Source of the DNA: an uncultured virus (IMG/VR IMGVR_UViG_3300045996_004413)
Taxonomy: Duplodnaviria; Heunggongvirae; Uroviricota; Caudoviricetes
DNA: 57,453 bases
Strand: one strand, 5' to 3'
Virus record (IMG/VR): IMGVR_UViG_3300045996_004413
Below are positions 2,905 to 45,447 of this stretch, piece by piece. The translations under genes were made by a program, and so were the position numbers. Every line of letters begins with the position of its first letter. The stretch's first letter is position 1. The notes below the pieces were generated by a model. That model had not been told where the DNA came from, searched no databases, and was given only the letters and a program-made list of their open reading frames with translations.

Positions 2905-4716
2905 ATGTCGCTTTTCACGCAATACAACGAGCCTTCAACTGCCGCCAGCGCCGGCGTGCTCGAGCGTCAGTCGAAGCAATTTCCCCAGCCGTGGCTCGAC
3001 CCCGCGTCCGCCCAGCTCCCCAGCGACATCACCCAGGTCTTTCGTTTCTGCGAGTTGCTCTGGTACTCCAACGGCATTTACTCCCAGGCAATGAACCGCA
3101 TCGCATCGTACTTCGTCACCCGTATCAAGATTGAAGGCGTCGACAACGAGAAGCACGACCGCTGGCAGGATTACCTGCAGAACGTGTTTTTCATCAACAA
3201 GTTCATGGTCAGCACCGGCCGGAACTTCCTCGCCTACGGCAACGTGATGATGACGCCCCGGGTCGCGGTCAGCCGCTTCCTGCGTTGCCCCTGCAACCAC
3301 ACCGCCCCGATCCAGCAGTGGAAGTACCGCTTCAACGCCGGCAAGTTCCGCCCCGAGGGCAAGGGCTGCCCGCGATGCCGCCGCACCAACGAACTGGAGC
3401 GGCTGGACTTCCGCCCCCTGAACCCCAAGTCGATCGACGTGCGGATCTGGAATCCCCACTCGATGAAACTCAAATACAACGGCATCACCGACCGGCTCGT
3501 GTACCGTCACATCCTCAGCCGCCAGGACGCGGAGATGATTCGCCGCGGCGACCCGGACATGCTGGAAGATACGCCGTGGGAATTTGTGGAAGCGGCGATG
3601 GAGCGGGTGCCGATCCGCGTGGCCAACGATCGCATGTACCACCTCAGGGACATGCCGCTGGCCGGCATCGACTCCCGCGGCGTGGGCGTGCCCCGCGGCA
3701 TGGCCAACTTCCGCCAGGCGTTTCTCACCCAGGTCCTCATGCGTCTGAACATGGTGCTGGGCCTGGAATACTCCACGCCCTTCCGCTCCGTGACGCCCGA
3801 ACCCGGCGGCAGCGAGGGTATGGATCCCAGCATGGGCAACGACCTGGGCGACGTGACGTCCCGGCTCACCGCCCTGCTTTCGGACTGGAAGCGGGATCCC
3901 GCAGCAATTCACACCTTCCCGATCCCCCTGCGGTACACCGCGTGGGGCGGCGAAGGCCTGCAGCTGGCAAGCCACCAGGTGCAGGAACAGGCCATGACCC
4001 AGTTGCTTACCGGCCTGGGTATCCCTGTCGATTTCTTCACCGGCTCGTTTAAGTCGGAACGCACCTTTGTTCCCACCCTCCGCCTGATGGAGCGCACGTG
4101 GGAAGAACTTGTCAGCAGCTACAACGCCACCCTGAGCTGGCTTGCCGAGACCCTCTCTGATCTCCTGCGCTGGGACAAGCCCAAGCTCACCATGGAATCG
4201 GTCACCACCGCCGACGACCTCGAGCTTCGCCAAATGCTCATGGACCTGTACATGCAGGGCCGGGTCAGCGGCACGACGGCGTTCGAGACGATCCAGAAAA
4301 ACCCCGTCGACGAAAACAAGAAGATGCTCGAGGAGCAGGTCGAAATGCAGGCCGACGCCGACAAGGCCAAGGCCAAGCAGGAAAAGGCCATGGGCAACCT
4401 CCAGCAGGTCAGCAGCACCTTCGCCCCGCCGCCGCAGCAGCCCGGGCAGCCAGGTGCTCCCGCCGACCCCAACCAGGCACAGACAGCTTCCCCCGGCTCG
4501 CCCGCGATGGGCAACACCCCTGTACGCCCACAGGACCTGCTGGAAAAGGCGCAGGCGAAGGCGACAGAGCTCCTGGCCAAGGCCCAGGAGCAGCGGAGGC
4601 CGGAGTTGAAACAATTGCAAGACACCGACCCATTGCTGCATGACGCGGTTGTGAAAGCGATGGAAGAACAGCGGTCGGCCCGTGGGTCGGATGCCGCGCA
4701 ATCACAACAAGGGTAG
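2905..4716 (+). CDS. Putative portal protein with zinc-ribbon-like insertion
   Basis: 603 aa, first large gene of the head module. It has a helical N-terminal segment (YSQAMNRIASYFVT), a GLGIPVDFF motif typical of portal C-terminal halves and a Gln/Pro-rich tail. Insertion: CPCNH...CPRC. Confidence 0.6.
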   Translation: MSLFTQYNEPSTAASAGVLERQSKQFPQPWLDPASAQLPSDITQVFRFCELLWYSNGIYSQAMNRIASYFVTRIKIEGVDNEKHDRWQDYLQNVFFINKFMVSTGRNFLAYGNVMMTPRVAVSRFLRCPCNHTAPIQQWKYRFNAGKFRPEGKGCPRCRRTNELERLDFRPLNPKSIDVRIWNPHSMKLKYNGITDRLVYRHILSRQDAEMIRRGDPDMLEDTPWEFVEAAMERVPIRVANDRMYHLRDMPLAGIDSRGVGVPRGMANFRQAFLTQVLMRLNMVLGLEYSTPFRSVTPEPGGSEGMDPSMGNDLGDVTSRLTALLSDWKRDPAAIHTFPIPLRYTAWGGEGLQLASHQVQEQAMTQLLTGLGIPVDFFTGSFKSERTFVPTLRLMERTWEELVSSYNATLSWLAETLSDLLRWDKPKLTMESVTTADDLELRQMLMDLYMQGRVSGTTAFETIQKNPVDENKKMLEEQVEMQADADKAKAKQEKAMGNLQQVSSTFAPPPQQPGQPGAPADPNQAQTASPGSPAMGNTPVRPQDLLEKAQAKATELLAKAQEQRRPELKQLQDTDPLLHDAVVKAMEEQRSARGSDAAQSQQG

Positions 4717-10538: not shown

Positions 10539-10546
10539 GAGATTTT

Positions 10547-10969
10547 ATGACCGACGCCGACATCACCCAGTTCAAGCTCGACGCCCTGACCAAGATGGCC
10601 CACCTGGGCATCACCCCGGGACAGTTCGGTCGTGCGATCAAGCAAGCCAATCCCCTGGCCTTCGCCTCCAGCGCAGTAAAAGGCACGATGGACGCCGGCC
10701 AGACGGCGGCAAGCGGCGTTTACAACCTCGGAAAGGGGGTTCTTATCCCAGCCTCTGCTCTTCTGCTGGGCGCAGGGGCCCTCGCTGGCTATGCTGGGGA
10801 GCATGTGCTCGGCCCCCGCAAGCCGGACGTCGATGAAGCCCGGGAAAACGCCCGCATCGAACAGCTTCGCCGCGGGGCTCTGCGTTTGAAGGCAGAAACC
10901 CAAGCGGAGACAGCGAATGCCCCCCGTCGCCGAAAACCCCCCGCCCTATCAATTCTCTCCTCCGTCTAA
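10547..10969 (+). CDS. Small glycine-zipper protein with K-x-A-terminated leader (140 aa)
   Basis: AGGAGA SD; leader ...TKMAHLGITPGQFGRAIKQA; TM-like LLLGAGALAGYAG. Confidence 0.8.
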   Translation: MTDADITQFKLDALTKMAHLGITPGQFGRAIKQANPLAFASSAVKGTMDAGQTAASGVYNLGKGVLIPASALLLGAGALAGYAGEHVLGPRKPDVDEARENARIEQLRRGALRLKAETQAETANAPRRRKPPALSILSSV

Positions 10970-12301: not shown

Positions 12302-15300
12302 ATGCTCGACGACGAAGAGAAAAAACTCGGCATCCGGGACATGGATGACGTTGGCGCAATCCGCGAAAACGTCACAACCGGCGTTGCGTCCGCAATCCAG
12401 GGCGTCAAGCCGCTAAATTACGGTGGCGTTTCTCTTTCGCTGCACGACGTCACCCTCGGCAAGTCGCCGGATCTCTCGTACGCCGCCCAGAAGAAGGCCC
12501 TCCTCAACCGCGGCTCGGTGGGCACCCCCGTCTACGGCACCTGGCGACTCACGGACACCGAGGGCAAGGTCCTCGACGAAAAGAAGAAGCTTCTTGCCAA
12601 CGTGCCGACGATCAACAACGGCGGCACCTACATTCGCCGCGGCATCGAGTACAGCTTGGCCAACCAGGGCCGCCTGCGGTTTGGCATCTACACCCACAAG
12701 AAACTCAACGGCGAGCTGGAGAGCCACTTCAACGTGGAGCCGGGCACCGGCAACCAGTTCAAGCTCAAGCTCGAGCCGGACACCGGCAAGTTCGTGATGC
12801 GGGTCGGGCAGGCCAACCTGCCGATCGTGCCGATCCTGCGGGCAATGGGCACTGCCGACGAAAAGATCAAGCAGGTACTTGGCCAGGAGTTGTTCGACGT
12901 CAACACCGCCCGCCTCCGCGGCGACGTGGTGGCAAAGGCCGTCGAATCCCTCGGCGGCCGCGACAAGAACAAGCACGGTGATCTGCCGACGGACGAAAAC
13001 GAGGCCCTGCGGACCATCCTCGCCAAGGCCCGGTTGGATCCGGACGTCAACACCAAGACGCTGGTGGGCAAGCCATACGACCACGTCTCCCCGGACGCAA
13101 TTCTCGACTCGGTGCAGGCCCTGGTGAAACTGCACTCGGGCAAGGCCCCGCCGGACAACCGCAACAACCAGTTGTACCAGCGGGTGTGGAGCCACGAGGA
13201 CCTGTTCCCTGAGCGGATCAAGAAAGACGCTGGCGGCATCCTCCGCAAGGTTATGTGGCAGGTGTCCCGCAAAAAGAGCCTCGACGCGATCCCCTCGGGG
13301 ATCTTCAACAAGCATCTCGACCAGGTGCTCCTGGGCAGCGGACTTTCCCAGAGCCCGGAAGAGACCAACCCCACCGAAGTACTGGACCAGTTGCATCGCG
13401 TGGTGCGTATCGGCGAAGGTGCGATCCCCACGATTGACGCCGTCCCCGACGACGCCCGCGCGGTGCAGGGGTCCTACGCCGGCTTCATTGACCCGATCCG
13501 CTCCCCGGAATCCGAGAAGGTGGGCGTTGACAACCGATTCGCCCACGGCGTGAGAAAGGGAAAAGATGGCCAGATCTACACCAAAATGCTCGACGTTAAA
13601 ACGGGGAAGCAGCGTCTGGTATCCGCCGACGAAGCCGGGACTGCCGTGGTTGCTTTTCCGCATGAAATGGATCGCCCTGGCAATGACCGGGTGCGTGCGG
13701 TCGTCCAAGGCCGCATCCAGCGGGTCGACCGCGACCAAGTCAACCTCGTGATGGCCCATCCGGCGAACCTGTTCACCATGCAGTCAAACCTGATGCCCAG
13801 CATCGGCTCGGTGGCCGGCGGCCGCGTGTTCCTCGGCGCCAAGTTCGTGTCCCAGGCCCTGCCGCTGATCAACCGCGAGGCGCCGCTGGTGCAGGCCGAG
13901 CACCCCGACGGTGAGTCGTTCGAAAGCAAGATCGGCCGGAAGATCGGCACCGTGGCGTCCGACCGTGACGGGCTTGTCACCAACGTGACCGACGACGAGA
14001 TCACCGTGGAAGGCCCTCGAGGGCAGAAGGTGTTCTCGATCGCCAATTTCGTGCCCTACAACCGCAAGACATTCCTCAAGCATCACCCGTCGGTCAAGAT
14101 CGGCGACCGTGTCACTGCCGGCCAACTCCTGGCCACCAGCAACATGACCGACAAGAACGGCAACCTCGCACTGGGCACCAACCTGCGGGTGGCCTACGTG
14201 CCGTTTTCCCGCGGCGGGGGCAACAACTACGAAGACGCGATCGTTCTGTCGGAGTCCGGAGCCAAGAAGCTCACCGCCGAACAGATGTACACTCACAAGC
14301 TTGACTTCAACGAAGGCAAGCCCGACGCCGCCCAGCACCGCTCCCTGTTCCCGGGGATCTTCAACAAGAAACAGTTGGACCGCATCGGCCCCAACGGCAT
14401 CATCCTGCCCGGCAGCACCGTGGAGAAGGGTGACCCCATTGTCCTCGCCGTGCGTCAGCGGGATCCCAAGAAACCAGGCATGGGCAAGAGCAATTCATCT
14501 CGCCGATACGCGGATGCATCCATCCTTTGGGACCATGACCACCCGGGGTACATCACGGACTCGGCGATCGGCCCCAATGGCGTGGTCGTCGCGAGTCGTG
14601 TCGAGAATCCCATCCATGTCGGGGACAAGATGGCTGGACGGTTCGGCGACAAGCACATCGTCAGTGCGATCGTTCCCGACGCCCAGATGCCCGTCGATGA
14701 AAAGGGCAATGTTTTCCATGCGATTGTGAATCCGCACGGGATCATCAGCCGCGGCAACCCCGCGCAGATCGCTGAAGCTGCGTGGGGGCGAATCGCCGAA
14801 CTCACCGGCAAACCCTCGATCGTGCCGAGCATGAGCCTCGACGACCTGAACGCCAAGGCCAAAGAGGGGCTTGCGTTCCACGGCCTGCGGGACACCTCGG
14901 ACATGTTCGACCCGGTCCTCAACCGCAAGATTGCCAACATCGCCTCGGGCAATCGCTTCTACATGCGTCTGCACCACCTTGCTGAAGGCAAGCTCACTGG
15001 CCGCAGCGACACGGGTAACTTCAACCAGGACGGCGAACCGTCCAAGGGCGGCGGCGAGTCTGCCCCCCGCGTGGGCCTCATGGAGGTCAACGCCCTGTAC
15101 GCCGCCGGCGCCAACCACGTGCTGGACGACACCCATCAGGTCAAAGGCTCGCGCAACGAAGATTACTGGCGGGCCATCCGCATGGGCTTCTCCCCGCCAG
15201 CCCCCAAGTCCCCCGAGGTGCTCAAGAAATTCCTCGCTCTCCTTGCCGCCTCCGGCGTGAACGTGCAGCAGGAAGGTTCCCGCCTGCACGTGATGGCAAT

Positions 15301-16717
15301 GACCGACAGCCAGGTCGACGACATCGCCCAGGGCGAGATCAAGGTCGCCGATACCGTGCGGTTCCCCGACATGCAGCCGATCGATGGCGGCCTGTTTGAC
15401 CGCGGCATCACCGGGGGCCACGGAGGCGACCGCTTCGGCAAGATCGAACTGGGGGTCAAGATCCCCAACCCGGTCATGGAAGAGCCGATTCGCAAACTGT
15501 TGGGACTTACCGAAAAGTCCCTACGAAACGTAATGAGCGGAAAAGATGAGCTCAATGGAGAAACGGGACCCAAGGCGATCGCTGAGGCCCTGCGAGGCAT
15601 CAACGTTGACCGTGAGATCGAGAACGCCAAGCAGAAGATCCGCACAGCGAAACGATCGCCCCGAGATGCCGCCATCAAGAAGCTCCGGGTCCTCGAGATG
15701 TTCAAACGCACGGACCTCAAACCTGAAGACATGATGATCTCCAAGCTGCCGGTGCTGCCGCCATCGTTCCGCCCGATCTCGATGATGAACGATGTGCCGC
15801 TGGTGAACGGCAGCAACATGCTCTACAAGGACCTGCTGCAGGCCAAGGAAAATTACCACGGCCTGCTCAAGAGCCTCGGCCCGGCCAACACCGGCGATGA
15901 AATGCTCGCGGTGTACGACGCTGCCAAGGCCGTGGTAGGCCTGGGCGAGCCGATCAACAAGGAAACGCAGCAGCGGCGGGCCAAGGGCCTGCTGTCGGTC
16001 ATCTTCGGCGACAGCCCCAAGAACGGCACGTTCCAACGGAAGATGATGGGCAAGACCGTCAACCTGGGCGGCCGCGCGGTGATCACCCCGGACCCCCGCC
16101 TCAACATGGACCAGGTCGGCGTCCCCGAGGAAATCCTGTGGAAGTCCTACGCCCCCTTTGTGATGCGTCGCATGGTGCGCCGCGGCATGAAGCCCCTGGA
16201 GGCCCAGCAGGCGATCAAGGAGCGCACCCCCTCGGCCTACGGCGAATTGCACAACGAGATGCAGGAACGCCCGGTGATGATCAACCGCGCTCCTTCGCTG
16301 CACCGCTACAGCATCATGGCGGCCTGGCCGGTGCTCACCAAGGCCAAGAGCCTGCGAATCTCCCCGGTGGTCACTTCGGCCTTCAACGCCGACTTCGATG
16401 GCGACACCATGGCGGTCCACGTGCCCGCCAGCGACAAGGCGATCGAAGAAATGATCGACAAGCTGATGCCCAGCCGTCAGCTCCTGAGCACCAAAAACTT
16501 CAAGGCCCACTTCCTGCCCCGGCAGGAATACCAGCTGGGTTTGTACGAGGCGACCAAGCCTTCGGCAAAGAAAAATCCGGTGGTTTTCGAAGATCTAAAA
16601 GCTGCAATTCGCGCTTTTAGACAAGGTCAGCTCAACCTTGATGATATAATCGAAGTTCCTGGGGCCCAGCCCCATCCAACTGCTGTCGCAGACGTCACGC
16701 AAGGATTACTGTCATGA
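12302..16717 (+). CDS. rpoBC: DNA-directed RNA polymerase: complete beta fused to N-terminal half of beta-prime (1471 aa)
   Basis: Beta motifs: GGTYIRRGIEYSLANQ, RSPESEKVG, GAKFVSQALPL, LALGTNLRVAY..NYEDAIVLSE, GDKMAGRFGDK, NPHGIISRGN, YMRLHHL, RVGLMEVNAL. Beta-prime motifs follow: GLFDRGITGG, LPVLPPSFRP, GKTVNLGGRAVI, NRAPSLHR and catalytic NADFDGD (16385-16405). Confidence 0.97.
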   Translation: MLDDEEKKLGIRDMDDVGAIRENVTTGVASAIQGVKPLNYGGVSLSLHDVTLGKSPDLSYAAQKKALLNRGSVGTPVYGTWRLTDTEGKVLDEKKKLLANVPTINNGGTYIRRGIEYSLANQGRLRFGIYTHKKLNGELESHFNVEPGTGNQFKLKLEPDTGKFVMRVGQANLPIVPILRAMGTADEKIKQVLGQELFDVNTARLRGDVVAKAVESLGGRDKNKHGDLPTDENEALRTILAKARLDPDVNTKTLVGKPYDHVSPDAILDSVQALVKLHSGKAPPDNRNNQLYQRVWSHEDLFPERIKKDAGGILRKVMWQVSRKKSLDAIPSGIFNKHLDQVLLGSGLSQSPEETNPTEVLDQLHRVVRIGEGAIPTIDAVPDDARAVQGSYAGFIDPIRSPESEKVGVDNRFAHGVRKGKDGQIYTKMLDVKTGKQRLVSADEAGTAVVAFPHEMDRPGNDRVRAVVQGRIQRVDRDQVNLVMAHPANLFTMQSNLMPSIGSVAGGRVFLGAKFVSQALPLINREAPLVQAEHPDGESFESKIGRKIGTVASDRDGLVTNVTDDEITVEGPRGQKVFSIANFVPYNRKTFLKHHPSVKIGDRVTAGQLLATSNMTDKNGNLALGTNLRVAYVPFSRGGGNNYEDAIVLSESGAKKLTAEQMYTHKLDFNEGKPDAAQHRSLFPGIFNKKQLDRIGPNGIILPGSTVEKGDPIVLAVRQRDPKKPGMGKSNSSRRYADASILWDHDHPGYITDSAIGPNGVVVASRVENPIHVGDKMAGRFGDKHIVSAIVPDAQMPVDEKGNVFHAIVNPHGIISRGNPAQIAEAAWGRIAELTGKPSIVPSMSLDDLNAKAKEGLAFHGLRDTSDMFDPVLNRKIANIASGNRFYMRLHHLAEGKLTGRSDTGNFNQDGEPSKGGGESAPRVGLMEVNALYAAGANHVLDDTHQVKGSRNEDYWRAIRMGFSPPAPKSPEVLKKFLALLAASGVNVQQEGSRLHVMAMTDSQVDDIAQGEIKVADTVRFPDMQPIDGGLFDRGITGGHGGDRFGKIELGVKIPNPVMEEPIRKLLGLTEKSLRNVMSGKDELNGETGPKAIAEALRGINVDREIENAKQKIRTAKRSPRDAAIKKLRVLEMFKRTDLKPEDMMISKLPVLPPSFRPISMMNDVPLVNGSNMLYKDLLQAKENYHGLLKSLGPANTGDEMLAVYDAAKAVVGLGEPINKETQQRRAKGLLSVIFGDSPKNGTFQRKMMGKTVNLGGRAVITPDPRLNMDQVGVPEEILWKSYAPFVMRRMVRRGMKPLEAQQAIKERTPSAYGELHNEMQERPVMINRAPSLHRYSIMAAWPVLTKAKSLRISPVVTSAFNADFDGDTMAVHVPASDKAIEEMIDKLMPSRQLLSTKNFKAHFLPRQEYQLGLYEATKPSAKKNPVVFEDLKAAIRAFRQGQLNLDDIIEVPGAQPHPTAVADVTQGLLS
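16642..16650 (+). promoter_or_regulatory. Internal extended -10 promoter (TGATATAAT) in the 3' end of the RNAP gene
   Basis: Perfect TGn-TATAAT in a locally AT-rich, codon-atypical stretch about 65 bp upstream of the next start. Confidence 0.55.
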
Positions 16718-18195
16718 CCAAGATCGCTGAGCTTCGGGCCAAGGCCAAGAACATCAAAGTCGCTGCCGATTTCTGGTGCAAGTCGTGCAAGCGGCCCAAG
16801 TCAGGCTGCCCTTGCACAATGAAGACCAAGAACAAGGTGGCGGCCGCCGGCGCGCCGGCACCTTCGCCGGGCTCCCCGCCGCCGACTCCCGGCGCTGCCC
16901 CCGCTGGCGGCGCTCCGACTCCTGGCGCTCCCGCCCCGGCATCTGCCGCCCCGCCCGCTGGCGGCCCGCAGGTCCCGGATCCCACCCAGCCCAACATGCC
17001 CCCGGGCGCCGCAGGCACCGTCCCCACGGGCGTGACGCAACAGGTGGACGCTCTCACGCAGGCCAAGCAGCAGGCTGAACAAGCCAAGCAGCAGGCCGAC
17101 CTGATCCGTGCTGAAGGCATCAAGGTCAAATCCCAGATGCAGATCGCCAAGGAGCAGCAGAACCTGCAGAAGATCCAGCAGCAGGCCCAACAGTTCCAAC
17201 AGGCAGCCGCTGCCCCCGCCCCTGCACCCGCCCCCGGCGGCGGTGCAATGGGTGCAACCCCAGGTGCAATGGGCGGTACAACCCCCGGCGGCGCACCTGG
17301 CGGTGCACCGGGCGGCGCTCCCGCCCCGGCCGCCCCCAAGATGGCGAGTGCCAAGATCGCCAGCGTGAAGCTCACGCTGCTCAAGAAGAAAGCTGCCGCG
17401 AACCGCCGCATCAACGACACGATGGCCGACCTGTGCGCGATCAACGAAGTATTGATCTGCGATCTCAATCCCGAGCACGTGAAAGCAGCGAGTAGCACGA
17501 TCCCGCTGTCGTCCACGCAGCCCTGGCTGGTGGACTTCTGCCTGAACTCCAACGGCAGCGGCCGGGTCGCCGACATGATCAACCAGCGCCTCCACGGCAA
17601 CGCCCGCGTCGAGAAGATCGCCGCCGGGGATCTTCTCGCCTACCGCAACGTCCTCGAGCGGGGCATTCGCCTTGATCGCGGCATCCGCAAGATGGCAGGC
17701 ATCATCGCTACCTCAGTGGAAAAGCGTGCCGCGGACGCCCAGACGCCGATCCCCGCCATGGTGCTAACCAAGGCCGCGACCGTGGTGGGAGAAGACATTC
17801 TCCTGCCCCTGCGACAGGCCGTGGCCCTCAAGTTTGACCGCTACCTGCGTAAACAGGCAGCGATGCTCTCGACCGTGACGGTGACCACCAAGCAAGGGTC
17901 CAAGACCCTGCCGGTTGTTACCCTCGATGACGCGTCGCGCAGCCTCGCCGAAGTCATGCAGGCGGATGACGCGACCCCGGAGACGCAGGCCCAGAAGGAA
18001 GCCGCGGTACGCGTGATCTTCCTCAAGCATGCTGCCCTGCGGAAAGCGGCAAACATCCAGGTGTTGGAACACGCGGGCGCAGCAGCCCTTGTCGGTAATG
18101 ACAGCGTGGGCCTGTCCAAGTGTCTCATTGGCCTTGCTGCCGAAGGCGTCTTTGGCGACGCCGCCATGAGCAGCGTTCTTGGAATCGAAGCATGA
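16714..18195 (+). CDS. K-x-A-rich, Pro/Ala/Gln low-complexity protein with N-terminal Cys cluster (493 aa); putative inner-head/scaffold-like protein
   Basis: ATGA-coupled to the RNAP gene; CKSC...CPC; more than a dozen K-x-A motifs. Confidence 0.8.
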   Translation: MTKIAELRAKAKNIKVAADFWCKSCKRPKSGCPCTMKTKNKVAAAGAPAPSPGSPPPTPGAAPAGGAPTPGAPAPASAAPPAGGPQVPDPTQPNMPPGAAGTVPTGVTQQVDALTQAKQQAEQAKQQADLIRAEGIKVKSQMQIAKEQQNLQKIQQQAQQFQQAAAAPAPAPAPGGGAMGATPGAMGGTTPGGAPGGAPGGAPAPAAPKMASAKIASVKLTLLKKKAAANRRINDTMADLCAINEVLICDLNPEHVKAASSTIPLSSTQPWLVDFCLNSNGSGRVADMINQRLHGNARVEKIAAGDLLAYRNVLERGIRLDRGIRKMAGIIATSVEKRAADAQTPIPAMVLTKAATVVGEDILLPLRQAVALKFDRYLRKQAAMLSTVTVTTKQGSKTLPVVTLDDASRSLAEVMQADDATPETQAQKEAAVRVIFLKHAALRKAANIQVLEHAGAAALVGNDSVGLSKCLIGLAAEGVFGDAAMSSVLGIEA

Positions 18196-18671
18196 ACCAG
18201 ACATTGACCATCGTGGTGCCTGAGACCCGGGCGCAGATCAAGATCGCCTTCACCAAGGAGGCGGCGACGGTCGCACCGGGACTTGGGTTCGACTTTCAAA
18301 ACAAGATCGACGTTGCCGCTATGGTCAACACCTGCCAGATGCTGCGCAACAGCGAGATCGTCGCGCCGCCTGCCGTGAAGGCCGCGGTGGTTGCTGTTCC
18401 CGGCGGACAAGAGCAGGGTGCTCAGGGCACCCAGGCCCCGCCCCCGGGGGCAGATGCCCCCCAATTGGTGGACCGCCAGACATTCGATTCAACGGTGCAG
18501 CAGATGCAGCAACAGATCGCCGCCCTCGAACAGGCGCTGGCCTCCCAGGGCGGCGCACCTGCAGCACCCCCGGCATCGCCTCCGCCGGTCGCCGGAGCGG
18601 CTCAGCCTCAAGCCGCTCCGGCCCCCCAGGCGACGCCCAAAGCAGCCAAGGTCACTTGTCACTTGCTGTGA
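18192..18671 (+). CDS. Hypothetical Pro/Ala/Gln-rich protein (159 aa)
   Basis: Start moved to ATG 18192 (ATGA overlap); KIAFTKEAA motifs; short coiled coil. Confidence 0.7.
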   Translation: MNQTLTIVVPETRAQIKIAFTKEAATVAPGLGFDFQNKIDVAAMVNTCQMLRNSEIVAPPAVKAAVVAVPGGQEQGAQGTQAPPPGADAPQLVDRQTFDSTVQQMQQQIAALEQALASQGGAPAAPPASPPPVAGAAQPQAAPAPQATPKAAKVTCHLL

Positions 18672-18678
18672 GATTCCC

Positions 18679-18906
18679 GTGCTTGTCGAACTTCACAATG
18701 GCTCGGTGCTTACCCGGCCCTCAGTTTTTGACAACGTGTCAGCGGTCAAGGTTTTCGGCCTCAACCGGCAGCTCATTGCGATCATCCACGAGTTACAACC
18801 CGGGGTGACGCAGGTCGTCGACGCCGACGATCCGGACTTTGCATCGGTATGCAAGAACTACGGGATCAACACCAAACCCGCCGTGGCTATCGAGGTGGAT
18901 CAGTGA
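18679..18906 (+). CDS. Small hypothetical protein (75 aa) coupled to the beta-prime C-terminal gene
   Basis: GTG start within ORF 18391..18906; globular sequence VELHNGSVLTRPSVFDNV...; its stop overlaps the next start (GTGA). Confidence 0.65.
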   Translation: MLVELHNGSVLTRPSVFDNVSAVKVFGLNRQLIAIIHELQPGVTQVVDADDPDFASVCKNYGINTKPAVAIEVDQ

Positions 18907-20723
18907 GAGCGACGCTCGGCGCAATCCTGGTGAACTCCGTCCTGCCGGAGGAGTTCCGCGACTACAACCGCACGTGGGACAAGAAAACCACGTCCGCGGT
19001 CATGGACGCGGTCGCCAAGAAATACCCCAACGATTACCGGGACATCGTCCATAAGCTCCACGAGATCGGAGGCCTGGCAGCATATACCTCCGGTCACACG
19101 GTCACCCTTAACGACCTCGCCTCCGTCGCCCTCCCACCCGAAAAGACCATGGAGATCAACCGGGCCATCGACAAGATCACCGACTCCAAGGGGTCCTTTG
19201 ATGAAAAGAACAAGCAATTGCTGGAGTTCCTCGGCAAGATCGGCGAGGACGCCGAAGTTTCCACGCTGCAGGCCCTGACCCAGAGAAACAACCCCCTGGC
19301 CAAGGAAGTCAACGCCGGTGCCCGTGGAAACGCCACGCAGCTCAACTCCATGGTCGGCTCTTCTTCGCTGGTGCTCGACCAGGACAACAACCCCGCCCCC
19401 GTGGCAATCATGAACAGCCTGTCGCACGGCCTGTCTCCTGCGGAGTATTTCGCCCAGAGCTTCGGCACCCGCCGCGGGGCGATCTCCACCAAGATGGCCA
19501 CCGCCGACTCAGGCTTTCTCGGCAAGCAGCTGGCACTGGCGGCCCACCGCCTGATCGCCACCGACGATGAACCTATGCCGGGCCTGGGGCTGCCAGTGGA
19601 CGCCTTCGATGAAGACAACGTGGGCGCTGCCTTGGCCCAGGACGTTGGCCCTTACAAAGCAGGCACGATCATTACGTCCTCCATGGTCAAAAGCTGGCCC
19701 AAGGGCACAAAGCGGATCCTGGTGCGCAGCCCGGTCTCCGACATCTCCCCCGACGGTGGCGTGCCGCGTCTTTCTTTAGGTATCCGGGAAAATGGGATTC
19801 CGGAACACGGCGAAGAAGTGGGGATACCGGCAATCCAGACGATCACCAACGACCTCAGCCAGGGGGCGCTCAATGAAAAACACCGCGGCGGGGCCGGCGG
19901 CGTGCGCAAAGCCGGATTCAAGGTCATTAACCAACTCGTCCAGGTTCCCAAGGTATTCCCGTCCGGCGCTGCTCATGCCGCCCTCGACGGGAACGTCACC
20001 GCGATTACCGACGCCCCACAGGGGGGCAAGTACATCCACATCGGAGACACCAAGCATTACGTTGCCCCCGACCAGTCGCCGACGGTCCAGAAGGGCGCCA
20101 GCGTCGAAGCCGGCGACGTGATGAGCAACGGCCTGCCCAACCCCTCGGTGATCGTGCACCACAAGGGCATCGGCGAAGGCCGGCGATACTTCACCGACCT
20201 GATGCGGGACGTGCTCAACGAGAGCAAGCTGGGGGCAAATCGGCGGAACATTGAGTTGATGGCCCGCTCGGTCATCAACCACGTGCGGGTGAAAGACGAG
20301 TCCGACGCCCTGCCCGGGGCGCTCCCCGGCGACGTGGTGGAATACGATCGGCTCGCCCACTCCTACCAGCCCCGCGAAGGGGCCCTGGAAGTCCCGGCCA
20401 CCAGCGCCAAGGGCGGGTACCTTGAGAAGCCGGTGCTGCACTACTCCATCGGCACCCAGATCAAGCCCAGTGTCAGCCGCACCCTCAAGGAGTTCGGCGT
20501 CAAGACAGTCACTGTCCACAAGGACCCGCCGCCGTTCGAGCCCTACCAGGAACGGGTCATGACCTCCATGCTGCAGTCTCCCGACTGGGCCGAGCGGCTG
20601 GGCGGATTCTACACCTCCAAGGGCATGCTCGACGCCGTTCACCGCGGCGGTTCGAGCGACCTGAACAGCAACTCCTACATCCCCAAGCTGGTGTTCGGCG
20701 CCCCGCTGGCCGGCGACAAATAA
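18903..20723 (+). CDS. rpoC: DNA-directed RNA polymerase beta-prime C-terminal half (606 aa)
   Basis: GTG start with GAGGTGG SD. Motifs: TLGAILVNSVLP, GARGNATQL, bridge helix GLSPAEYFAQSFGTRRGAISTKMATADSGFLGKQL, trigger loop GEEVGIPAIQTITNDLSQGALNEKHRGG, RRNIELMARS. Confidence 0.95.
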   Translation: MRATLGAILVNSVLPEEFRDYNRTWDKKTTSAVMDAVAKKYPNDYRDIVHKLHEIGGLAAYTSGHTVTLNDLASVALPPEKTMEINRAIDKITDSKGSFDEKNKQLLEFLGKIGEDAEVSTLQALTQRNNPLAKEVNAGARGNATQLNSMVGSSSLVLDQDNNPAPVAIMNSLSHGLSPAEYFAQSFGTRRGAISTKMATADSGFLGKQLALAAHRLIATDDEPMPGLGLPVDAFDEDNVGAALAQDVGPYKAGTIITSSMVKSWPKGTKRILVRSPVSDISPDGGVPRLSLGIRENGIPEHGEEVGIPAIQTITNDLSQGALNEKHRGGAGGVRKAGFKVINQLVQVPKVFPSGAAHAALDGNVTAITDAPQGGKYIHIGDTKHYVAPDQSPTVQKGASVEAGDVMSNGLPNPSVIVHHKGIGEGRRYFTDLMRDVLNESKLGANRRNIELMARSVINHVRVKDESDALPGALPGDVVEYDRLAHSYQPREGALEVPATSAKGGYLEKPVLHYSIGTQIKPSVSRTLKEFGVKTVTVHKDPPPFEPYQERVMTSMLQSPDWAERLGGFYTSKGMLDAVHRGGSSDLNSNSYIPKLVFGAPLAGDK

Positions 20724-20785: not shown

Positions 20786-20830
20786 GTACTCTGCTATTAC
20801 TCTTACCCGAATTACGTGAGGGCCGCGGAC

Positions 20831-23134
20831 ATGGGCGCCACCAAGCAAGCCACCAACGACGTTGAATTCGAGCAGCGGTTGCAGCAGCTCTGCCTGCCGC
20901 AGATCAAGTCCAAGATTCCGCGCCTCGCCCCCATGATGATGGGTTTCGAGTTGCTCAACGTCAATGACGACGAGACCGAGGCCGCTGGGATCTACGCGTT
21001 CCGCGTGGGTGAGCAGCTGGTGTACGTGCCGGTCTTTTTCCGCGAAGGCATGATCAAGGGTTTGAACATGCTGTACCTGGAGAAGGACGATCTCTTTCTC
21101 CCGGCCGAGGAAGAATGGATCTCCTACATCATCAACCGCGAACCCTACACCGTCGGCAAACTCACAAGCCGCGAAGAACTCAACCGCGATTACCGTGACA
21201 CCTTCTCCAACGTCGCCAACGCCTTTGGTAAGACCGCCGCTGATGGCCGCCGCGCCTTCCAGAAGATGGCAGCCGTTGCCACGCTGGCTGCGCACGCAAA
21301 ACAGGTCCCTGATCTCGAAGCGCTGCTGCAGCGGTTCCCCAAGTCCGCCACCCTGAGCCTCCTGAACACCATGCAGATGGACGACGATTTTGGGCGGGCT
21401 GTGCTCCAGTTCTATCCCTTCCAGAAGCTCGCGGCGATCGCCGAGAAGATCGAGAACAACAAACGGCAGGAAAACGCCTCGGCCGACCCGATCAACGGCA
21501 AGGAAAACCAGGGCATCAAGTACAAGCGTAAGCCGCTGGCCCTGACCTCCGACGACAGCGGCCTGCTCGACGCCGACCTGACCGATGACGAACGCAAGCA
21601 GATCCGCGTGGACGGCGTTGCAATCCGCGACGACCGGGATTCCAAGGACGTCACTGATGTTCTGCGGACCGAGACCCCCACCCAGTGGTTTGCTCCGACC
21701 CACCCCGGCGTTTACGACCTCATCGACGTCAAGGGCGCCATTCAAAAGGCCGTGATCTTCACCAGCGTCATCACCGTGGGCGATGGTTCCGCCCGCTGCA
21801 TCGTTGCTGTCACCAAGGACAAGGACGGCGGGGTATTTGCCCCGGGCGTCATGACCGCCACTGATGCCTACCCGGATGAGGCTTGGAACCGCTGGCACGA
21901 CGAGCTGCCGACGATCGGCGAAGCCGACATCTCCGACGGAGATCGGTTCGTCCTTGTCACCCGTGACATGCGGGCGACACCCCTGCTCCGGGCGATCGGC
22001 GTTAAGACCAAGAACTCTGACGATCGCACCACCACGCTGTTTGTCGACCACACCACCCACGTCGAGTTGCCCCGCAGCTCCGATCTGTACGGCGACAGCT
22101 ACGGCACCGGGCCGGTTGGATACGTTGGCGGCAACTCCAAGCGGGGCCAGCGACCCGGGATCTCCATGGACAACGAACCCGAAAGCACCGGGGTGCTCGA
22201 CAAGTACTTCGAACGACGGATTGAACGCGGCGAGGCTAAGGCCAGCGACGCGGAGTCCTACGACTACAAGCGCGGCCGCCGGATCACGATCGTCAAGAAC
22301 GACGAGACCCAGGAGATGGAAACCAGCGGCAACCAGCTGCTGGTCAGCGATGCAGTCCGCGTGCTCAAGCTCTCCAAGGACGACAAGGACACGGCCCGCA
22401 ACCTGATGGCCCCCTGCGACAGCTCGTTGTGGCCACGCATCAAGCAGGCCAACGCCAAGTTCCAGAAAATGGTCGTCGCCGCCCGCGGCACCAACGAGTA
22501 CGACATCTCCTGCGGCCTGGTCAAGAGCGGCACGGTCAACCACCGCGACGCAATCCTCCACCTGGTCATGGTCCATGGGACCAACAAGGCAGCGGCGATC
22601 CGCATGATGGCTGAGGCCCAGAAGGCAGCGTCCAAGCGGAAGGAAGCCCCGGTCTTTGCGGTCAAGCACGCTGATTCCTACCCCGACTTGGACATCAGCA
22701 GCAGCGCCGGGGGCAGCGGGGGCGTGGAAGAGACCGCAAACCGGGTCCACCAGGACTCCGGCGGCGGAAACCCTTTCCTGACCGAAGACATCAAGAGCAT
22801 CACCAACGCCGCCAAGTCCGGTGAGAAGTCGATGTTTGACACCGCGGTGCTTGTCTCGCTGGTTCGCCGGCATGACATCGGCGCTGCGATCGACGAACTC
22901 ATCAGCCCGGCAACGCTGGGCATCGACAGTTGGTGCCGCGCCCTGTTCCTGCTGTACGCCCACCGCCAGGCCTTCGAAGACAAGTACGGGACCGAAGATG
23001 TCCCGCAGCTCGAAGACGCTCTCGAGAACCTGATCAAGGAGAGCGGCGAGGTCCTGCTGATCCTGAAGAAGCAGTCCACCGAAGCGGAATCTGGTCTCGC
23101 CGAGCCCAAGAACGATCTCGAGCCCAGCGCCTAA
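20831..23134 (+). CDS. Large hypothetical head-module protein with K-x-A motifs (767 aa)
   Basis: ATG 20831 with GAGG SD preferred over GTG 20816; strong codon bias; KQAT, KTAA, KMAA, KLAA, KQAN, KHAD. Confidence 0.85.
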   Translation: MGATKQATNDVEFEQRLQQLCLPQIKSKIPRLAPMMMGFELLNVNDDETEAAGIYAFRVGEQLVYVPVFFREGMIKGLNMLYLEKDDLFLPAEEEWISYIINREPYTVGKLTSREELNRDYRDTFSNVANAFGKTAADGRRAFQKMAAVATLAAHAKQVPDLEALLQRFPKSATLSLLNTMQMDDDFGRAVLQFYPFQKLAAIAEKIENNKRQENASADPINGKENQGIKYKRKPLALTSDDSGLLDADLTDDERKQIRVDGVAIRDDRDSKDVTDVLRTETPTQWFAPTHPGVYDLIDVKGAIQKAVIFTSVITVGDGSARCIVAVTKDKDGGVFAPGVMTATDAYPDEAWNRWHDELPTIGEADISDGDRFVLVTRDMRATPLLRAIGVKTKNSDDRTTTLFVDHTTHVELPRSSDLYGDSYGTGPVGYVGGNSKRGQRPGISMDNEPESTGVLDKYFERRIERGEAKASDAESYDYKRGRRITIVKNDETQEMETSGNQLLVSDAVRVLKLSKDDKDTARNLMAPCDSSLWPRIKQANAKFQKMVVAARGTNEYDISCGLVKSGTVNHRDAILHLVMVHGTNKAAAIRMMAEAQKAASKRKEAPVFAVKHADSYPDLDISSSAGGSGGVEETANRVHQDSGGGNPFLTEDIKSITNAAKSGEKSMFDTAVLVSLVRRHDIGAAIDELISPATLGIDSWCRALFLLYAHRQAFEDKYGTEDVPQLEDALENLIKESGEVLLILKKQSTEAESGLAEPKNDLEPSA

Positions 23135-29243: not shown

Positions 29244-29300
29244 GTGCCGCTTCGGCGGCTGATGACGAGCAACCACGAGCACTTCACACGGAGACTCTCC

Positions 29301-30503: not shown

Positions 30504-31511
30504 GTGAAAGAATACATGGGTTCCACTCTGACTCCCGCCGAAGTCAAGCAGTCGAACGAGCAGATGCTCGAATGGCTGCGGTCTGACTCGGAAGGAGGCG
30601 GGACGAAAGCCGCCGCGTCCACCACGGAGATGATCCGTACGCGTGTTCGCGAAGGTTCAATCGCCCGGAACATCCTTTCGCCGCGCAACATCGGCCCCGC
30701 GGACCTCGTGCCGTCGCTGACGGACGACGATCCTCGCTACCTGGGCGAGATCGAGCCGGACACCCCGGGCGGCGTCGTGCTGCCGTTGGGCGCCCGTCCG
30801 CAGGCGTGGTACTTCTTCGGCAAGCGTTACGAAGCGCGGTTCAACCGCCTCGAGACGCCGCGCTACATGAAGGACACCACCCAGCTGCTCACCTACAAGA
30901 CGGACCTCCGGCAGGTGCTCAGCGACGCGTCGCTCAAGGACCTCCTGTCCCTGGAAGACACCCGGTTCATCCAGATGTGCAACAACGTCATGGCGCCCAC
31001 CACGCTGACCTACGGGGAAACCAACCCCAGCAGCGGCGTGATCCAGTGGGACTCGATCAACGACGACATCAACCCCACCTCGGTGGCCGATGCGTTGACG
31101 ATCATGAACCGCTCCAACTACGGCCTCGATCCCGCGACCGTGCTCGTGAACCTCAACTTCGCCAAGCAGATGATGAAGTGGGGCCGCGACGACTTCGGTG
31201 GTGATCTCGCCGAAGATGTGAAGAAGAACGGCTTCACCGAGCGCCAGTTCATGGGCGTGCGGTGGCTGGTGACGATCAAGAACTGGCTGGTTCCGGACGG
31301 GGCCATGTTCCAGTTCGCTCCGCAGGAATTCATCGGGGAAACCCTGATCCTGACGGACTCGACGATGCACGTCCGCAAGGACGCGTACAACATCGAGTTC
31401 TGGTCGTACCAGGAAGTCGCCCAGATCCTGGCCAACTCGGCTGGTATCGCCCGCTGTGACTTCCTCCTGGCCAGCTGGTCGGGCGGTGACGGCACCCGCA
31501 CCTACGTCTAA
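30504..31511 (+). CDS. Major capsid protein (HK97 fold, 335 aa)
   Basis: AGGAG SD. Size, position after protease/scaffold, strong codon bias and downstream terminator fit. Also IRTRVREGSIARNIL, a KDLLSLEDTRFI spine-helix-like segment, and FMGVRWLVT. Confidence 0.8.
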   Translation: MKEYMGSTLTPAEVKQSNEQMLEWLRSDSEGGGTKAAASTTEMIRTRVREGSIARNILSPRNIGPADLVPSLTDDDPRYLGEIEPDTPGGVVLPLGARPQAWYFFGKRYEARFNRLETPRYMKDTTQLLTYKTDLRQVLSDASLKDLLSLEDTRFIQMCNNVMAPTTLTYGETNPSSGVIQWDSINDDINPTSVADALTIMNRSNYGLDPATVLVNLNFAKQMMKWGRDDFGGDLAEDVKKNGFTERQFMGVRWLVTIKNWLVPDGAMFQFAPQEFIGETLILTDSTMHVRKDAYNIEFWSYQEVAQILANSAGIARCDFLLASWSGGDGTRTYV

Positions 31512-45446: not shown

Positions 45447-45447
45447 C

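What the first reader, a model, noticed from the sequence alone, without database searches (positions are those of the whole stretch)
12302..20723. Both RNAP chains contain zero cysteines and have lost both zinc sites, suggesting a virion-packaged, ejected polymerase
Seen: no Cys in 1471 + 606 aa, whereas portal, protease, capsid, neck and sheath proteins here all contain Cys. The beta-prime N-terminal zinc-binding domain is cleanly deleted (GLFDRGITGG-HGG-DRFGKIEL, about 15390-15450), and the second Zn site reads RSPVSDISPDGGVPRLSLG instead of RS..C....G.C..CYG. Established: the injected virion RNAP of phage N4 is cysteine-free. The tape measure here, normally an ejected protein, is also Cys-free. 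Inference: this RNAP is packaged in the head, passes unfolded through the tail and periplasm, and refolds without Zn to transcribe early genes.
Basis: partly seen in the sequence, partly recalled or inferred. Interest (0 to 1): 0.88.

Follow-up and report, generated by a model that had tools for sequence, protein, structure and literature searches.

The report
Cysteine-free, zinc-less phage RNA polymerase
A large tailed phage encodes its own bacterial-type RNA polymerase that has lost every cysteine and both zinc sites, as in well over a hundred relatives, most likely because the enzyme travels inside the virus particle and is injected into the host.

Summary
The fused beta-beta'N chain (12302-16717, 1471 aa) and the beta'C chain (18903/18849-20723, 606/624 aa) contain no Cys; about 14 are expected from the other ORFs of the window (P about 8e-7). 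The beta' zinc-binding domain is replaced by a short loop, and all four ligands of the second zinc site are substituted. The catalytic NADFDGD motif is intact.

The trait is family-wide. In 120 homologues of chain 1 (42-67% identical), 110 have no Cys in 1465 core columns. Basal relatives, including the cultured phages Arash and Vibrio D69, keep the second zinc site as almost their only cysteines. The window's clade has lost that too.

In Arash, published virion mass spectrometry found the homologous chain to be the most-detected protein, along with beta'C and a Cys-free sigma factor that has an orthologue here.

N4 virion RNAP (3500 aa, 0 Cys) and its ejection proteins show the same purge. 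The phiKZ virion RNAP does not, with 16 Cys.

Verdict: this is very probably a virion-carried, injected, sigma-dependent RNAP of the known mReC phage lineage. The link between Cys loss and ejection is inference. It is a new variant of a known kind.

The parts
12302..16717 (+). RNAP chain 1: beta fused to the N-terminal half of beta' (1471 aa, 0 Cys)
   Evidence: Pfam Rpb2_3, Rpb2_6 (E 1.3e-40), Rpb1_1, Rpb1_2 (E 4.1e-29). PDB phmmer matches to bacterial beta and beta'. 0 Cys.
15386..15451 (+). Scar of the deleted beta' N-terminal zinc-binding domain: GGLFDRGITGGHGGDRFGKIEL
   Evidence: Translation. Alignment to Salmonella RpoC shows the roughly 32-residue segment with C70/C72/C85/C88 absent. 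G1029-G1042 are invariant in 39 homologues. The spacer is 22-27 aa with 0 Cys in 165 of 165 chains that carry both anchors.
16385..16405 (+). Catalytic NADFDGD motif (Mg-binding aspartates), intact
   Evidence: phmmer alignment to B. subtilis and cyanobacterial beta'/gamma. A1363-D1368 are invariant in alignment A1.
16714..18195 (+). Intervening ORF: 493 aa, 8 Cys, Pro/Ala/Gln-rich, with an N-terminal CxxC...CxC cluster. No family match.
   Evidence: Translation. No Pfam or PHROG hit. Relatives carry a roughly 240-aa Pro/Ala-rich ORF at the same place, but no sequence match was detected.
18903..20723 (+). RNAP chain 2: C-terminal half of beta' (606 aa from GTG 18903, or 624 aa from ATG 18849; 0 Cys either way)
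   Evidence: Pfam Rpb1_5. PDB matches to beta' residues about 660-1190. AlphaFold model pLDDT 84.9; Foldseek to Thermus beta' E 1e-24, TMq 0.6. Start codon context.
19572..19574 (+). Position of the first Zn2 ligand (E. coli/Salmonella C814), here Pro
   Evidence: phmmer alignment to M. tuberculosis beta'. MAFFT alignments.
19725..19781 (+). Remodelled Zn2 segment RSPVSDISPDGGVPRLSLG in place of RS..C....G.C..CYG
   Evidence: The model's pLDDT in this region is 88-95.
51405..52112 (+). Sigma-70-like factor (235 aa, 0 Cys) inside the baseplate module; orthologue of Arash gp10
   Evidence: Pfam Sigma70_r3 (E 5.8e-6) and phrog_351 (E 2.5e-13). Matches Arash gp10. 10 of 10 database homologues have 0 Cys.
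45448..48219 (+). Probable tape measure protein (923 aa, 0 Cys)
   Evidence: Lies between the sheath/tube region and the baseplate genes. Atlas leads to TMP clusters at 0.89/0.87 only. Weak.
2905..4716 (+). Portal protein (603 aa, 5 Cys); context and Cys-containing control
   Evidence: phmmer to Arash gp204 portal, E 9e-42. 10 length-matched homologues in related loci have a median of 7 Cys.
20816..23134 (+). Conserved structural-module ORF just downstream of chain 2 (772 aa, 5 Cys); Cys-containing control
   Evidence: Matches Arash gp218, annotated 'structural protein'. 50 homologues in related loci have a median of 8 Cys, and none has 0.
30504..31511 (+). Major capsid protein (335 aa, 2 Cys); context
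   Evidence: phmmer to Arash gp226 major capsid protein, E 4e-27.
35939..38692 (+). Tail sheath (917 aa, 10 Cys); context
   Evidence: phrog_279 tail sheath. Matches Arash gp236.

Best explanation
The window is the head-tail module of a large myophage. Its contig is at least 119 kb, and complete relatives are 181-229 kb. It belongs to the lineage described as multisubunit-RNAP-encoding Caudovirales (mReC).

The phage encodes one bacterial-type RNAP core made of two chains, beta fused to beta'N and a separate beta'C, plus a sigma-70-like factor. I infer that core and sigma are made late with the structural proteins, packed into the head, and delivered into the cell with the DNA. There they would transcribe early genes without host RNAP or new protein synthesis.

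Strong, long-standing selection has removed every cysteine. The beta' zinc-binding domain was deleted in the family's ancestor. Non-ligand Cys were purged family-wide. In the window's clade the last four Cys, the Zn2 ligands, were replaced by a metal-free segment that is predicted to stay folded.

The likely reason (inference) is that a protein stored in a virion and threaded through the tail and cell envelope must avoid thiol oxidation and disulfide trapping, and must regain activity without re-acquiring zinc.

Shown here: gene identities, Cys and Zn loss, family-wide conservation, synteny with Arash.
Shown in print for a relative only: presence in virions.
Inferred: packaging in this phage, ejection, early transcription, and why Cys is lost.
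For: 1. Cys purge in chain 1. 84 of the 89 listed homologues of core length have 0 Cys. In 1465 core columns, 110 of 120 have 0 Cys and only 12 Cys occur in all.

2. Cys purge in chain 2. 35 of the 37 Zn2-less relatives have 0 Cys. 9 of the 11 Zn2-keeping relatives have exactly the 4 ligand Cys. Among 150 representatives, each standing for a cluster at 50% identity, 101 of the 138 Zn2-less have 0 core Cys, giving 0.053% overall.

3. The purge is specific to these proteins. Other ORFs of the same 78 loci hold 1.10% Cys. The adjacent ORF has a median of 8 Cys in 50 homologues and is never 0. The portal has a median of 7.

4. Arash virion mass spectrometry (passages read of PMC10585845):
- gp206, the chain 1 homologue: 128 unique peptides and 3516 spectra, the highest of all proteins.
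- gp216: 40 unique peptides.
- sigma gp10 (0 Cys): 24 unique peptides.
- The second sigma, gp196 (3 Cys), is not in the table.

5. The order portal, RNAP, capsid, neck, sheath, sigma, baseplate J is the same in the window and in Arash.

6. The sigma factor is also Cys-free: 10 of 10 database homologues and 4 of 5 orthologues in complete genomes.

7. Precedent. N4 vRNAP has 0 Cys in 3500 aa, and its ejection proteins gp51 and gp52 have 0 Cys. Cys suppression across Schitoviridae ejection proteins is published.

8. phiKZ parallel. The virion beta'N subunit gp180 shows no ZBD motif, while the non-virion gp55 keeps CxC...CxxC.

9. Only one beta/beta' gene set is found in Arash and in 4 relatives with CheckV completeness of 100%.
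Against: - There are no virion data for this phage. Arash is only 31.6% identical.
- The Arash table lists 116 proteins, including ribonucleotide reductase and ligases. Its authors state that abundant infection proteins may simply co-purify. Purification was by sucrose gradient only.
- The phiKZ virion RNAP is packaged yet has 16 Cys in 2614 aa, against 33 in 2850 aa for the non-virion enzyme. That is only a two-fold depletion.
- Being Cys-free is not specific to ejected proteins. The N4 and Arash major capsid proteins also have 0 Cys.
- Some homologues carry Cys-containing inserts with GNAT or SET domains and no recognised intein.
- Met is not depleted in the RNAP (2.2-3.0% against 2.6%), which argues against general oxidation-proofing.
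- The host is unknown, so a periplasm cannot be assumed.
- If this is the phage's only RNAP, its composition could reflect constraints unrelated to packaging.
Confidence: 0.6

Rival explanations
1. The polymerase is packaged, but the Cys and Zn loss serves storage rather than transit. It would protect a dormant enzyme from thiol oxidation, zinc loss and cross-linking while it sits for long periods in a particle exposed to oxidising surroundings. Passage through a periplasm would play no part.
For: - Non-ejected virion proteins are also Cys-free in N4 (major capsid protein, gp57) and Arash (major capsid protein, gp227, gp228).
- The four most-detected Arash virion proteins other than beta'C have 0-2 Cys in 307-2548 aa.
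- The host, and therefore the envelope type, is unknown.
Against: - Met, which is also prone to oxidation, is not depleted.
- Portal, sheath and neck proteins of the same particle keep 3-10 Cys.
- phiKZ stores a virion RNAP that has 16 Cys.
Confidence: 0.2
2. The polymerase is not a virion component. It is made after infection like other phage RNAPs. Its Cys- and Zn-free state would then reflect a different pressure, such as independence from zinc supply, resistance to a thiol- or metal-directed host defence or phage-induced redox change, or simpler assembly of a minimal enzyme without alpha and omega.
For: - The Arash authors themselves allow that abundant enzymes may contaminate the particle preparation.
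- Only one RNAP set is found per genome, so the enzyme must also work late in infection.
- A phage sigma factor could in principle redirect host RNAP for early genes.
Against: - gp206 has the most unique peptides of any Arash protein (128), far above true contaminants such as the helicases gp193 and gp197 with 2 each.
- The RNAP genes lie inside the head module, co-oriented with portal and capsid genes, in both phages.
- The Cys-free sigma is detected in Arash virions while its Cys-containing paralogue is not.
- The closest analogue in degree of Cys purge is an ejected polymerase.
Confidence: 0.17
3. The absence of Cys is a by-product of base composition, drift or gene-calling, with no selective meaning.
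For: - The window as a whole is Cys-poor (0.59%).
- 15 of the 43 ORFs lack Cys, and about 7 would be expected by chance, mostly short ones.
Against: - P about 8e-7 within the window.
- Conserved at 42-67% identity across 120 homologues from contigs of varied composition, with 12 Cys in about 176,000 core residues.
- Neighbouring conserved ORFs keep 7-8 Cys.
- The only Cys retained in basal lineages are exactly the four zinc ligands.
Confidence: 0.01

Closest known systems
Multisubunit-RNAP-encoding Caudovirales (mReC; Weinheimer & Aylward 2020, PMC7481178), with cultured members Salmonella phage Arash (gp206/gp216) and Vibrio phages D69/D148/D181
   Same: - Bacterial-type beta and beta' on large myophage genomes.
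- The same beta-beta'N fusion and separate beta'C: one tblastn piece covers 95-96% of chain 1.
- The same position in the head module, and the same sigma in the baseplate module.
- ZBD deleted, and chain 1 nearly Cys-free: 1 Cys in Arash, 2 in D69.
   Different: - Arash and D69 keep the second zinc site as the only 4 Cys of beta'C. The window's clade has replaced all four.
- The 2020 paper's main text has no occurrence of 'virion', 'sigma', 'zinc' or 'cysteine'. Its supplements were not seen.
- Membership in the published clade rests on homology to IMG/VR contigs, not on the authors' own tree.
Phage N4 virion RNA polymerase gp50 and the Schitoviridae ejection proteins (gp51, gp52)
   Same: - Complete absence of Cys in a very large polymerase: 0 in 3500 aa.
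- The purge is conserved family-wide and is published: 0.00075% against a proteome value of 0.865% (PMC11445570).
- The gene lies among late/structural genes.
- The enzyme is ejected to transcribe early genes (literature).
   Different: - N4 vRNAP is a single-subunit, T7-like enzyme in a podovirus. There is no homology.
- N4 uses two further RNAPs later in infection, whereas only one RNAP set is found here.
- Ejection is shown for N4 and not shown here.
phiKZ/AR9-type jumbo phage virion RNAP (phiKZ gp80, gp149, gp178, gp180)
   Same: - A multisubunit beta/beta'-like enzyme that is packaged in the head and injected (review PMC7598289, passage; record notes 'structural head protein').
- The virion beta'N subunit shows no ZBD motif, while the beta'C subunit keeps a Zn2-like motif. 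That matches the basal state of this family.
   Different: - phiKZ chains are split rather than fused and are too divergent for Pfam: 1 of 6 recognised.
- They keep 16 Cys.
- phiKZ has a second, non-virion RNAP and no sigma-70-like factor (the last point is recalled, not tested here).
- Subunit roles are taken from record notes and memory.
Cellular bacterial RNAP core (Salmonella RpoB/RpoC used as reference)
   Same: - Domain order, the NADFDGD active site, and a fold match of chain 2 to Thermus, E. coli and Mycobacterium beta'.
- Dependence on a sigma-70-type factor is inferred from the phage sigma gene.
   Different: - Salmonella has 7 + 15 Cys including two Cys4 zinc sites; this enzyme has none.
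- beta is fused to beta'N here, and beta' is split near the point where cyanobacteria split it. The top PDB hits to chain 1 include the cyanobacterial gamma subunit.
- No alpha or omega homologue was seen among the window's Pfam hits.

Membership tests
Bacterial-type multisubunit RNAP (beta/beta') | beta catalytic-core domains (Rpb2 domains 3 and 6) | tested here: met
   PF00562 E 1.3e-40 and PF04565 E 8.7e-5, both above their cut-offs.
Bacterial-type multisubunit RNAP (beta/beta') | beta' active-site motif NADFDGD in Rpb1 domain 2 | tested here: met
   The motif aligns to PDB beta' chains and is invariant in 39 homologues.
Bacterial-type multisubunit RNAP (beta/beta') | beta' N-terminal Cys4 zinc-binding domain | tested here: not met
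   The segment is absent. 165 of 165 checkable homologues have a 22-27 aa Cys-free spacer instead.
Bacterial-type multisubunit RNAP (beta/beta') | Second beta' Cys4 zinc site (C814/C888/C895/C898 in Salmonella numbering) | tested here: not met
   All four positions are substituted in the window. The site is retained in 11 of 48 relatives and in Arash and D69.
Bacterial-type multisubunit RNAP (beta/beta') | alpha dimer and omega subunits | tested here: inconclusive
   No alpha or omega Pfam family among the 42 window ORFs scanned. The rest of the genome is not held.
mReC phage lineage | Tailed-phage contig encoding beta and beta' that are recognisably homologous to cellular subunits and group with other phage copies | tested here: met
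   446 IMG/VR stretches encode relatives. Contigs reach 235 kb and carry portal, capsid and sheath genes. Placement on the published tree was not tested.
Virion-packaged, injected RNAP (N4 vRNAP, phiKZ vRNAP) | Polymerase present in purified virions | not testable with these tools
   Reported only for the homologue in Arash (PMC10585845, passages).
Virion-packaged, injected RNAP (N4 vRNAP, phiKZ vRNAP) | Early transcription independent of host RNAP and of new protein synthesis | not testable with these tools
   No experimental data for this lineage came up in the five literature searches run; none of them asked this question directly.
Cys-suppressed phage ejection proteins (Schitoviridae gp50/51/52 type) | Cys frequency orders of magnitude below the proteome, conserved across the family | tested here: met
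   Chain 1 core holds 12 Cys in about 176,000 residues. The Zn2-less chain 2 core holds 0.053%. The locus background is 1.10%.
Cys-suppressed phage ejection proteins (Schitoviridae gp50/51/52 type) | Protein demonstrably leaves the virion and enters the cell | not testable with these tools
   Inference only.

The most novel reading that the evidence does not exclude
The phage's only RNA polymerase is a natural holoenzyme (fused core plus sigma) with no cysteine and no zinc, built to be stored in the particle and injected.

In this lineage, 'no cysteine' would mark the whole set of injected proteins. In this window that set would be the 15 Cys-free ORFs: RNAP, sigma, the probable tape measure, and the unexplained blocks at 6201-10969, 25300-26526 and 28041-29717. 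The ejected proteome of a contractile-tailed phage could then be read from sequence alone.

The family also preserves the order in which a universal metalloenzyme shed its metals: ZBD first, then stray Cys, then the Zn2 site.
Probability: 0.3. Interest if true: 0.8.

Novelty: new variant of a known kind. Interest (0 to 1): 0.64.

Why it matters
Both zinc sites of beta' are usually treated as near-universal structural features of bacterial RNAP. Here a large natural family shows that a bacterial-type enzyme can do without either, and living intermediates are available in the cultured phages Arash and Vibrio D69.

If the packaging reading is right, this is a third, independent solution to host-independent early transcription, after N4 and phiKZ. 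It would use a single sigma-dependent multisubunit enzyme for the whole infection. It would also extend the 'ejected proteins lack cysteine' rule from podoviruses to contractile-tailed phages, giving a sequence-only predictor of injected proteins.

There is a practical use too. A naturally Cys-free multisubunit RNAP would be a convenient scaffold for site-specific thiol labelling in single-molecule work.

Tried and rejected
- **Whole-genome search for a second RNAP.** Not possible, because no genome is held for the window. I used five complete relatives instead.
- **Megablast of the region against phages.** No match.
- **The search for related loci with the single protein.** Gave one short locus, so I repeated it with alignment A1.
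- **Two independent losses of the Zn2 site.** The free trees place Zn2-keeping lineages between the window and the main Zn2-less clade, needing at least 2 changes. However, the tree constrained to one Zn2-less clade has a log-likelihood 15.6 higher and p-AU 0.648. The number of losses is therefore left open.
- **C-terminal extensions of chain 2 as a fusion to the downstream structural protein.** These occur in 79 of 150 representatives. No window ORF matched them. 6 of the 8 scanned had no Pfam family beyond Rpb1. Rejected.
- **HMM of the conserved Pro/Ala-rich ORF between the chains in relatives.** No hit in the window or in Arash.
- **Pfam on phiKZ subunits.** Only 1 of 6 was recognised. I therefore repeated the search for a second RNAP with phiKZ-type PHROG profiles, which also found only the one ORF.
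- **PF00940 (T7-like RNAP).** Found nothing, but it had no positive control.
- **Protein Atlas on the 630-aa Cys-free ORF.** Nothing usable.
- **General oxidation-proofing.** Weakened because Met is not depleted.
- **Composition or drift.** Rejected on the neighbour controls.

Full report
**What is in the window**

Nearly all genes lie on the + strand of a 63% G+C sequence. Phage structural genes are recognisable:
- tail sheath at 35939-38692 (phrog_279);
- baseplate J at 52952-54553;
- by phmmer to annotated proteins of Salmonella phage Arash: portal (2905-4716), major capsid protein (30504-31511), two neck-region proteins, and a conserved structural ORF (20816-23134).

No whole genome is held for the window. 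The identical protein occurs on a contig of 119 kb.

**The polymerase**

ORF 12302-16717 (1471 aa) carries Pfam Rpb2_3 and Rpb2_6, followed by Rpb1_1 and Rpb1_2. It is therefore beta fused to the N-terminal half of beta'. ORF 18849-20723 carries Rpb1_5 and aligns to beta' residues about 660-1190 of solved bacterial enzymes. Its true start is probably the GTG at 18903, giving 606 aa. That codon overlaps the upstream stop and follows a Shine-Dalgarno-like stretch, and homologues begin to align there.

The catalytic NADFDGD motif is present and invariant in 39 homologues. An AlphaFold model of chain 2 built on 36 sequences has mean pLDDT 84.9. It matches Thermus, E. coli and Mycobacterium beta' at Foldseek E about 1e-24.

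**Check of the observation**

Both chains have 0 Cys. The other 41 + strand ORFs hold 102 Cys in 15,251 aa. That predicts 14 Cys in the 2095 RNAP residues, so P(0) = 7.8e-7. For comparison, Salmonella RpoB and RpoC hold 7 and 15 Cys.

The N-terminal zinc-binding domain (ZBD) of beta' is gone. The window reads GGLFDRGITGGHGGDRFGKIEL (nt 15386-15451). Salmonella has about 32 more residues there, carrying C70, C72, C85 and C88.

At the second zinc site (Zn2), the C814 position is a gap/Pro. RSPVSDISPDGGVPRLSLG replaces RSVVSCDTDFGVCAHCYG. This region of the model has pLDDT 88-95, so it is predicted to remain folded without metal.

**The trait is family-wide**

- **Chain 1, database search.** The search returned 370 proteins at E <= 1e-10, of which 120 were listed, at 42-67% identity.
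  - Of the 89 with core length, 84 have 0 Cys, 4 have 1 and 1 has 2.
  - The 31 longer proteins carry inteins, LAGLIDADG, GNAT or SET inserts.
  - In a MAFFT alignment of all 120, the 1465 core columns hold 0 Cys in 110 sequences, 1 in 8 and 2 in 2. All other Cys lie in insert columns.
- **Spread in IMG/VR.** 446 stretches encode relatives. 78 loci were fetched, from contigs of up to 235 kb.
- **Background in those loci.** 1332 other ORFs of at least 100 aa hold 1.10% Cys by crude ORF calling. The ORF just downstream of chain 2 has a median of 8 Cys in 50 homologues and is never 0. The portal has a median of 7 in 10. The purge is therefore specific to the polymerase.
- **ZBD.** Of 190 chain-1 homologues, 165 have both sequence anchors around the ZBD site. 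All 165 have a 22-27 residue spacer with no Cys. The other 25 could not be anchored.

**A graded series for the second zinc site**

Among 48 chain-2 homologues of 600-670 aa:
- 11 keep the canonical D-C-GT ... RSPxTC....GxCxxCxG. Of these, 9 have exactly four Cys (L063 has 7 and L072 has 6).
- 37 lack it. Of these, 35 have 0 Cys (L044 has 1 and L032 has 2).

Where chain 1 has core length in Zn2-keeping loci, it holds 0 Cys (L047, L056, L058) or 1 (L084). The whole enzyme there has essentially only the four ligands.

The two cultured lineages are of this type:
- Arash: gp206 has 1 Cys in 1525 aa and gp216 has 4 Cys, all at the Zn2 site.
- Vibrio phage D69: 2 Cys in 1527 aa, and 4 Cys at the Zn2 site.
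- Both lack the ZBD.

Among the best 150 representatives at 50% clustering, 12 keep the motif (9 with 4 core Cys and 3 with 5) and 138 do not. Of the 138, 101 have 0 core Cys, 32 have 1, 4 have 2 and 1 has 4, which is 0.053% overall.

Rooted on Salmonella, Zn2-keeping lineages branch first, so the loss is derived. The free tree needs at least two losses. The AU test, however, does not reject a single Zn2-less clade: the constrained tree has a log-likelihood 15.6 higher, with p-AU 0.648. I leave the number of losses open.

**Is the enzyme in the virion?**

There are no data for this phage. The closest cultured relative is Arash, where one tblastn piece covers 96% of chain 1 at 31.6% identity. 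In Arash the RNAP genes sit in the same place, directly after the portal.

I read passages, not the whole text, of PMC10585845. It reports mass spectrometry of sucrose-gradient particles:
- gp206 has the most spectra (3516) and the most unique peptides (128) of all proteins.
- gp216 has 40 unique peptides.
- The adjacent SNF2-type helicase gp217 has 38.
- Sigma gp10 has 24.

The authors list 116 proteins, including ribonucleotide reductase. They note that abundant infection proteins may co-purify.

Two contrasts between paralogues in Arash fit the hypothesis:
- Sigma gp10 (0 Cys, orthologue of window 51405-52112) is detected. Sigma gp196 (3 Cys) is not in the table.
- Helicase gp217 (0 Cys) has 38 unique peptides. 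Helicases gp193 (6 Cys) and gp197 (9 Cys) have 2 each.

The window's sigma is itself Cys-free, as are 10 of 10 database homologues and 4 of 5 orthologues in complete genomes.

**One polymerase only**

I searched Arash and four relatives rated 100% complete by CheckV (211-229 kb). Pfam PF00562 and PF00623, and the phiKZ-type profiles phrog_2987 and phrog_3295, each hit only the one fused ORF. PF00940 found nothing but had no positive control. A very divergent second enzyme cannot be excluded. As it stands, the same enzyme would serve early and late, with sigma factors as the likely switch (inference).

**Comparison with known injected polymerases**

- **N4.** From its record, N4 vRNAP has 0 Cys in 3500 aa. 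The ejection proteins gp51 and gp52 also have none. Lokareddy et al. 2024 (PMC11445570, passages) report Cys frequencies of 0.00075% in vRNAP homologues against 0.865% for the proteomes. They cite the idea that passage through a periplasm with disulfide-forming enzymes selects against Cys. They credit Kazmierczak et al. 2002, which I did not see, for the N4 observation.
- **phiKZ.** phiKZ is a counter-example in degree. Its virion subunits, marked 'structural head protein' in the record, hold 16 Cys in 2614 aa. The non-virion set holds 33 in 2850 aa. Even so, the virion beta'N-like gp180 shows no CxC...CxxC motif while the non-virion gp55 does, and both beta'C-like subunits keep a Zn2-like motif. 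That is the same state as Arash. These are motif scans only, and the subunit roles are partly recalled.

**Literature**

The lineage matches the mReC clade of Weinheimer & Aylward 2020. The main text of that paper has no occurrence of 'virion', 'sigma', 'zinc' or 'cysteine'; its supplements were not seen. The jumbo-phage RNAP review PMC7598289 has no occurrence of 'zinc' or 'cysteine'. Five full-text searches turned up no paper that describes a Cys- or Zn-free multisubunit phage RNAP. That is the limit of my claim that this is not in print.

**Mechanism, with status of each step**

- Shown: an apparently active bacterial-type core in two chains plus a sigma factor, with total Cys and Zn-site loss under strong family-wide selection.
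- Shown for a relative, in print: abundance in particle preparations.
- Inferred: late synthesis, packaging in the head, ejection with the DNA, and early transcription independent of the host.
- Inferred: Cys loss avoids thiol oxidation or disulfide trapping during storage and transit, and Zn loss lets the enzyme become active without recapturing metal.

Points against the causal step:
- Met is not depleted.
- Capsid proteins of N4 and Arash are also Cys-free.
- Some homologues carry Cys-bearing GNAT or SET inserts.
- The host is unknown.

**Verdict**

I put packaging and injection at about 0.6. This is a new variant of known kinds: mReC RNAP, virion RNAPs, and Cys-suppressed ejection proteins.

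Noticed in passing
window 6201-10969, 25300-26526, 28041-29717, 45030-48219, 48846-49610, 52099-52955: Besides RNAP and sigma, 12 more + strand ORFs have no Cys. Five of them are large: 587, 630, 408, 400 and 923 aa. In all, 15 of the 43 ORFs are Cys-free, against about 7 expected, and the expected ones are mostly short. None has a family match, except a sub-threshold Sigma70_r4 hit in the 587-aa ORF. They may be further internal or ejected proteins.
   Followed up: partly
window 16714-18195: The ORF between the two RNAP chains is Pro/Ala/Gln-rich and starts with a CxxC...CxC cluster (8 Cys in all). 52 relatives carry a roughly 240-aa Pro/Ala-rich ORF at the same place, 40 of them with 0 Cys and 12 with 1. 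No sequence match to the window or to Arash was detected.
   Followed up: partly
window 18391-18906: The first roughly 100 codons of this ORF look like an out-of-frame Arg/Pro-rich artefact. Only the last roughly 70 residues look genuine. Its stop overlaps the GTG start of chain 2 (GTGA), which suggests translational coupling.
   Followed up: no
homologues P0003-P0115; loci L007, L008, L011, L027, L042, L053, L055, L063: Chain 1 is a hot spot for insertions. 31 of the 120 listed homologues are 1650-2450 aa, with intein, LAGLIDADG, GNAT, SET or other domains. All their extra Cys lie in the inserts.
   Followed up: partly
representatives P0140-P0284: In 79 of 150 representatives, chain 2 carries a C-terminal extension of at least 150 aa, making some proteins over 1600 aa long. 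The extensions are also Cys-suppressed: 18 Cys in 49,557 aa. 6 of the 8 scanned had no Pfam family beyond Rpb1 (DUF5661 in 2, one of them also with DUF4269), and none matched any window ORF.
   Followed up: partly
L001 23067-24485 (Arash gp217): An SNF2-family helicase with 0 Cys lies directly after beta'C. It is strongly detected in Arash virions, with 38 unique peptides. This may be an RNAP-associated ATPase that is co-packaged. No counterpart was seen in the window.
   Followed up: no
L003/L005 (phiKZ gp55, gp74, gp80, gp180): Motif scan of phiKZ subunits. The non-virion beta'N-like gp55 keeps a CxC...CxxC zinc motif. The virion gp180 has none and only 2 Cys. Both beta'C-like subunits keep a Zn2-like motif. 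The tail-lysin/tape-measure-like gp181 has 1 Cys in 2237 aa.
   Followed up: partly
L002 (phage N4 gp56, gp57): The N4 major coat protein (401 aa) and gp57 (405 aa) also have 0 Cys, so Cys absence in N4 is not confined to ejected proteins.
   Followed up: no
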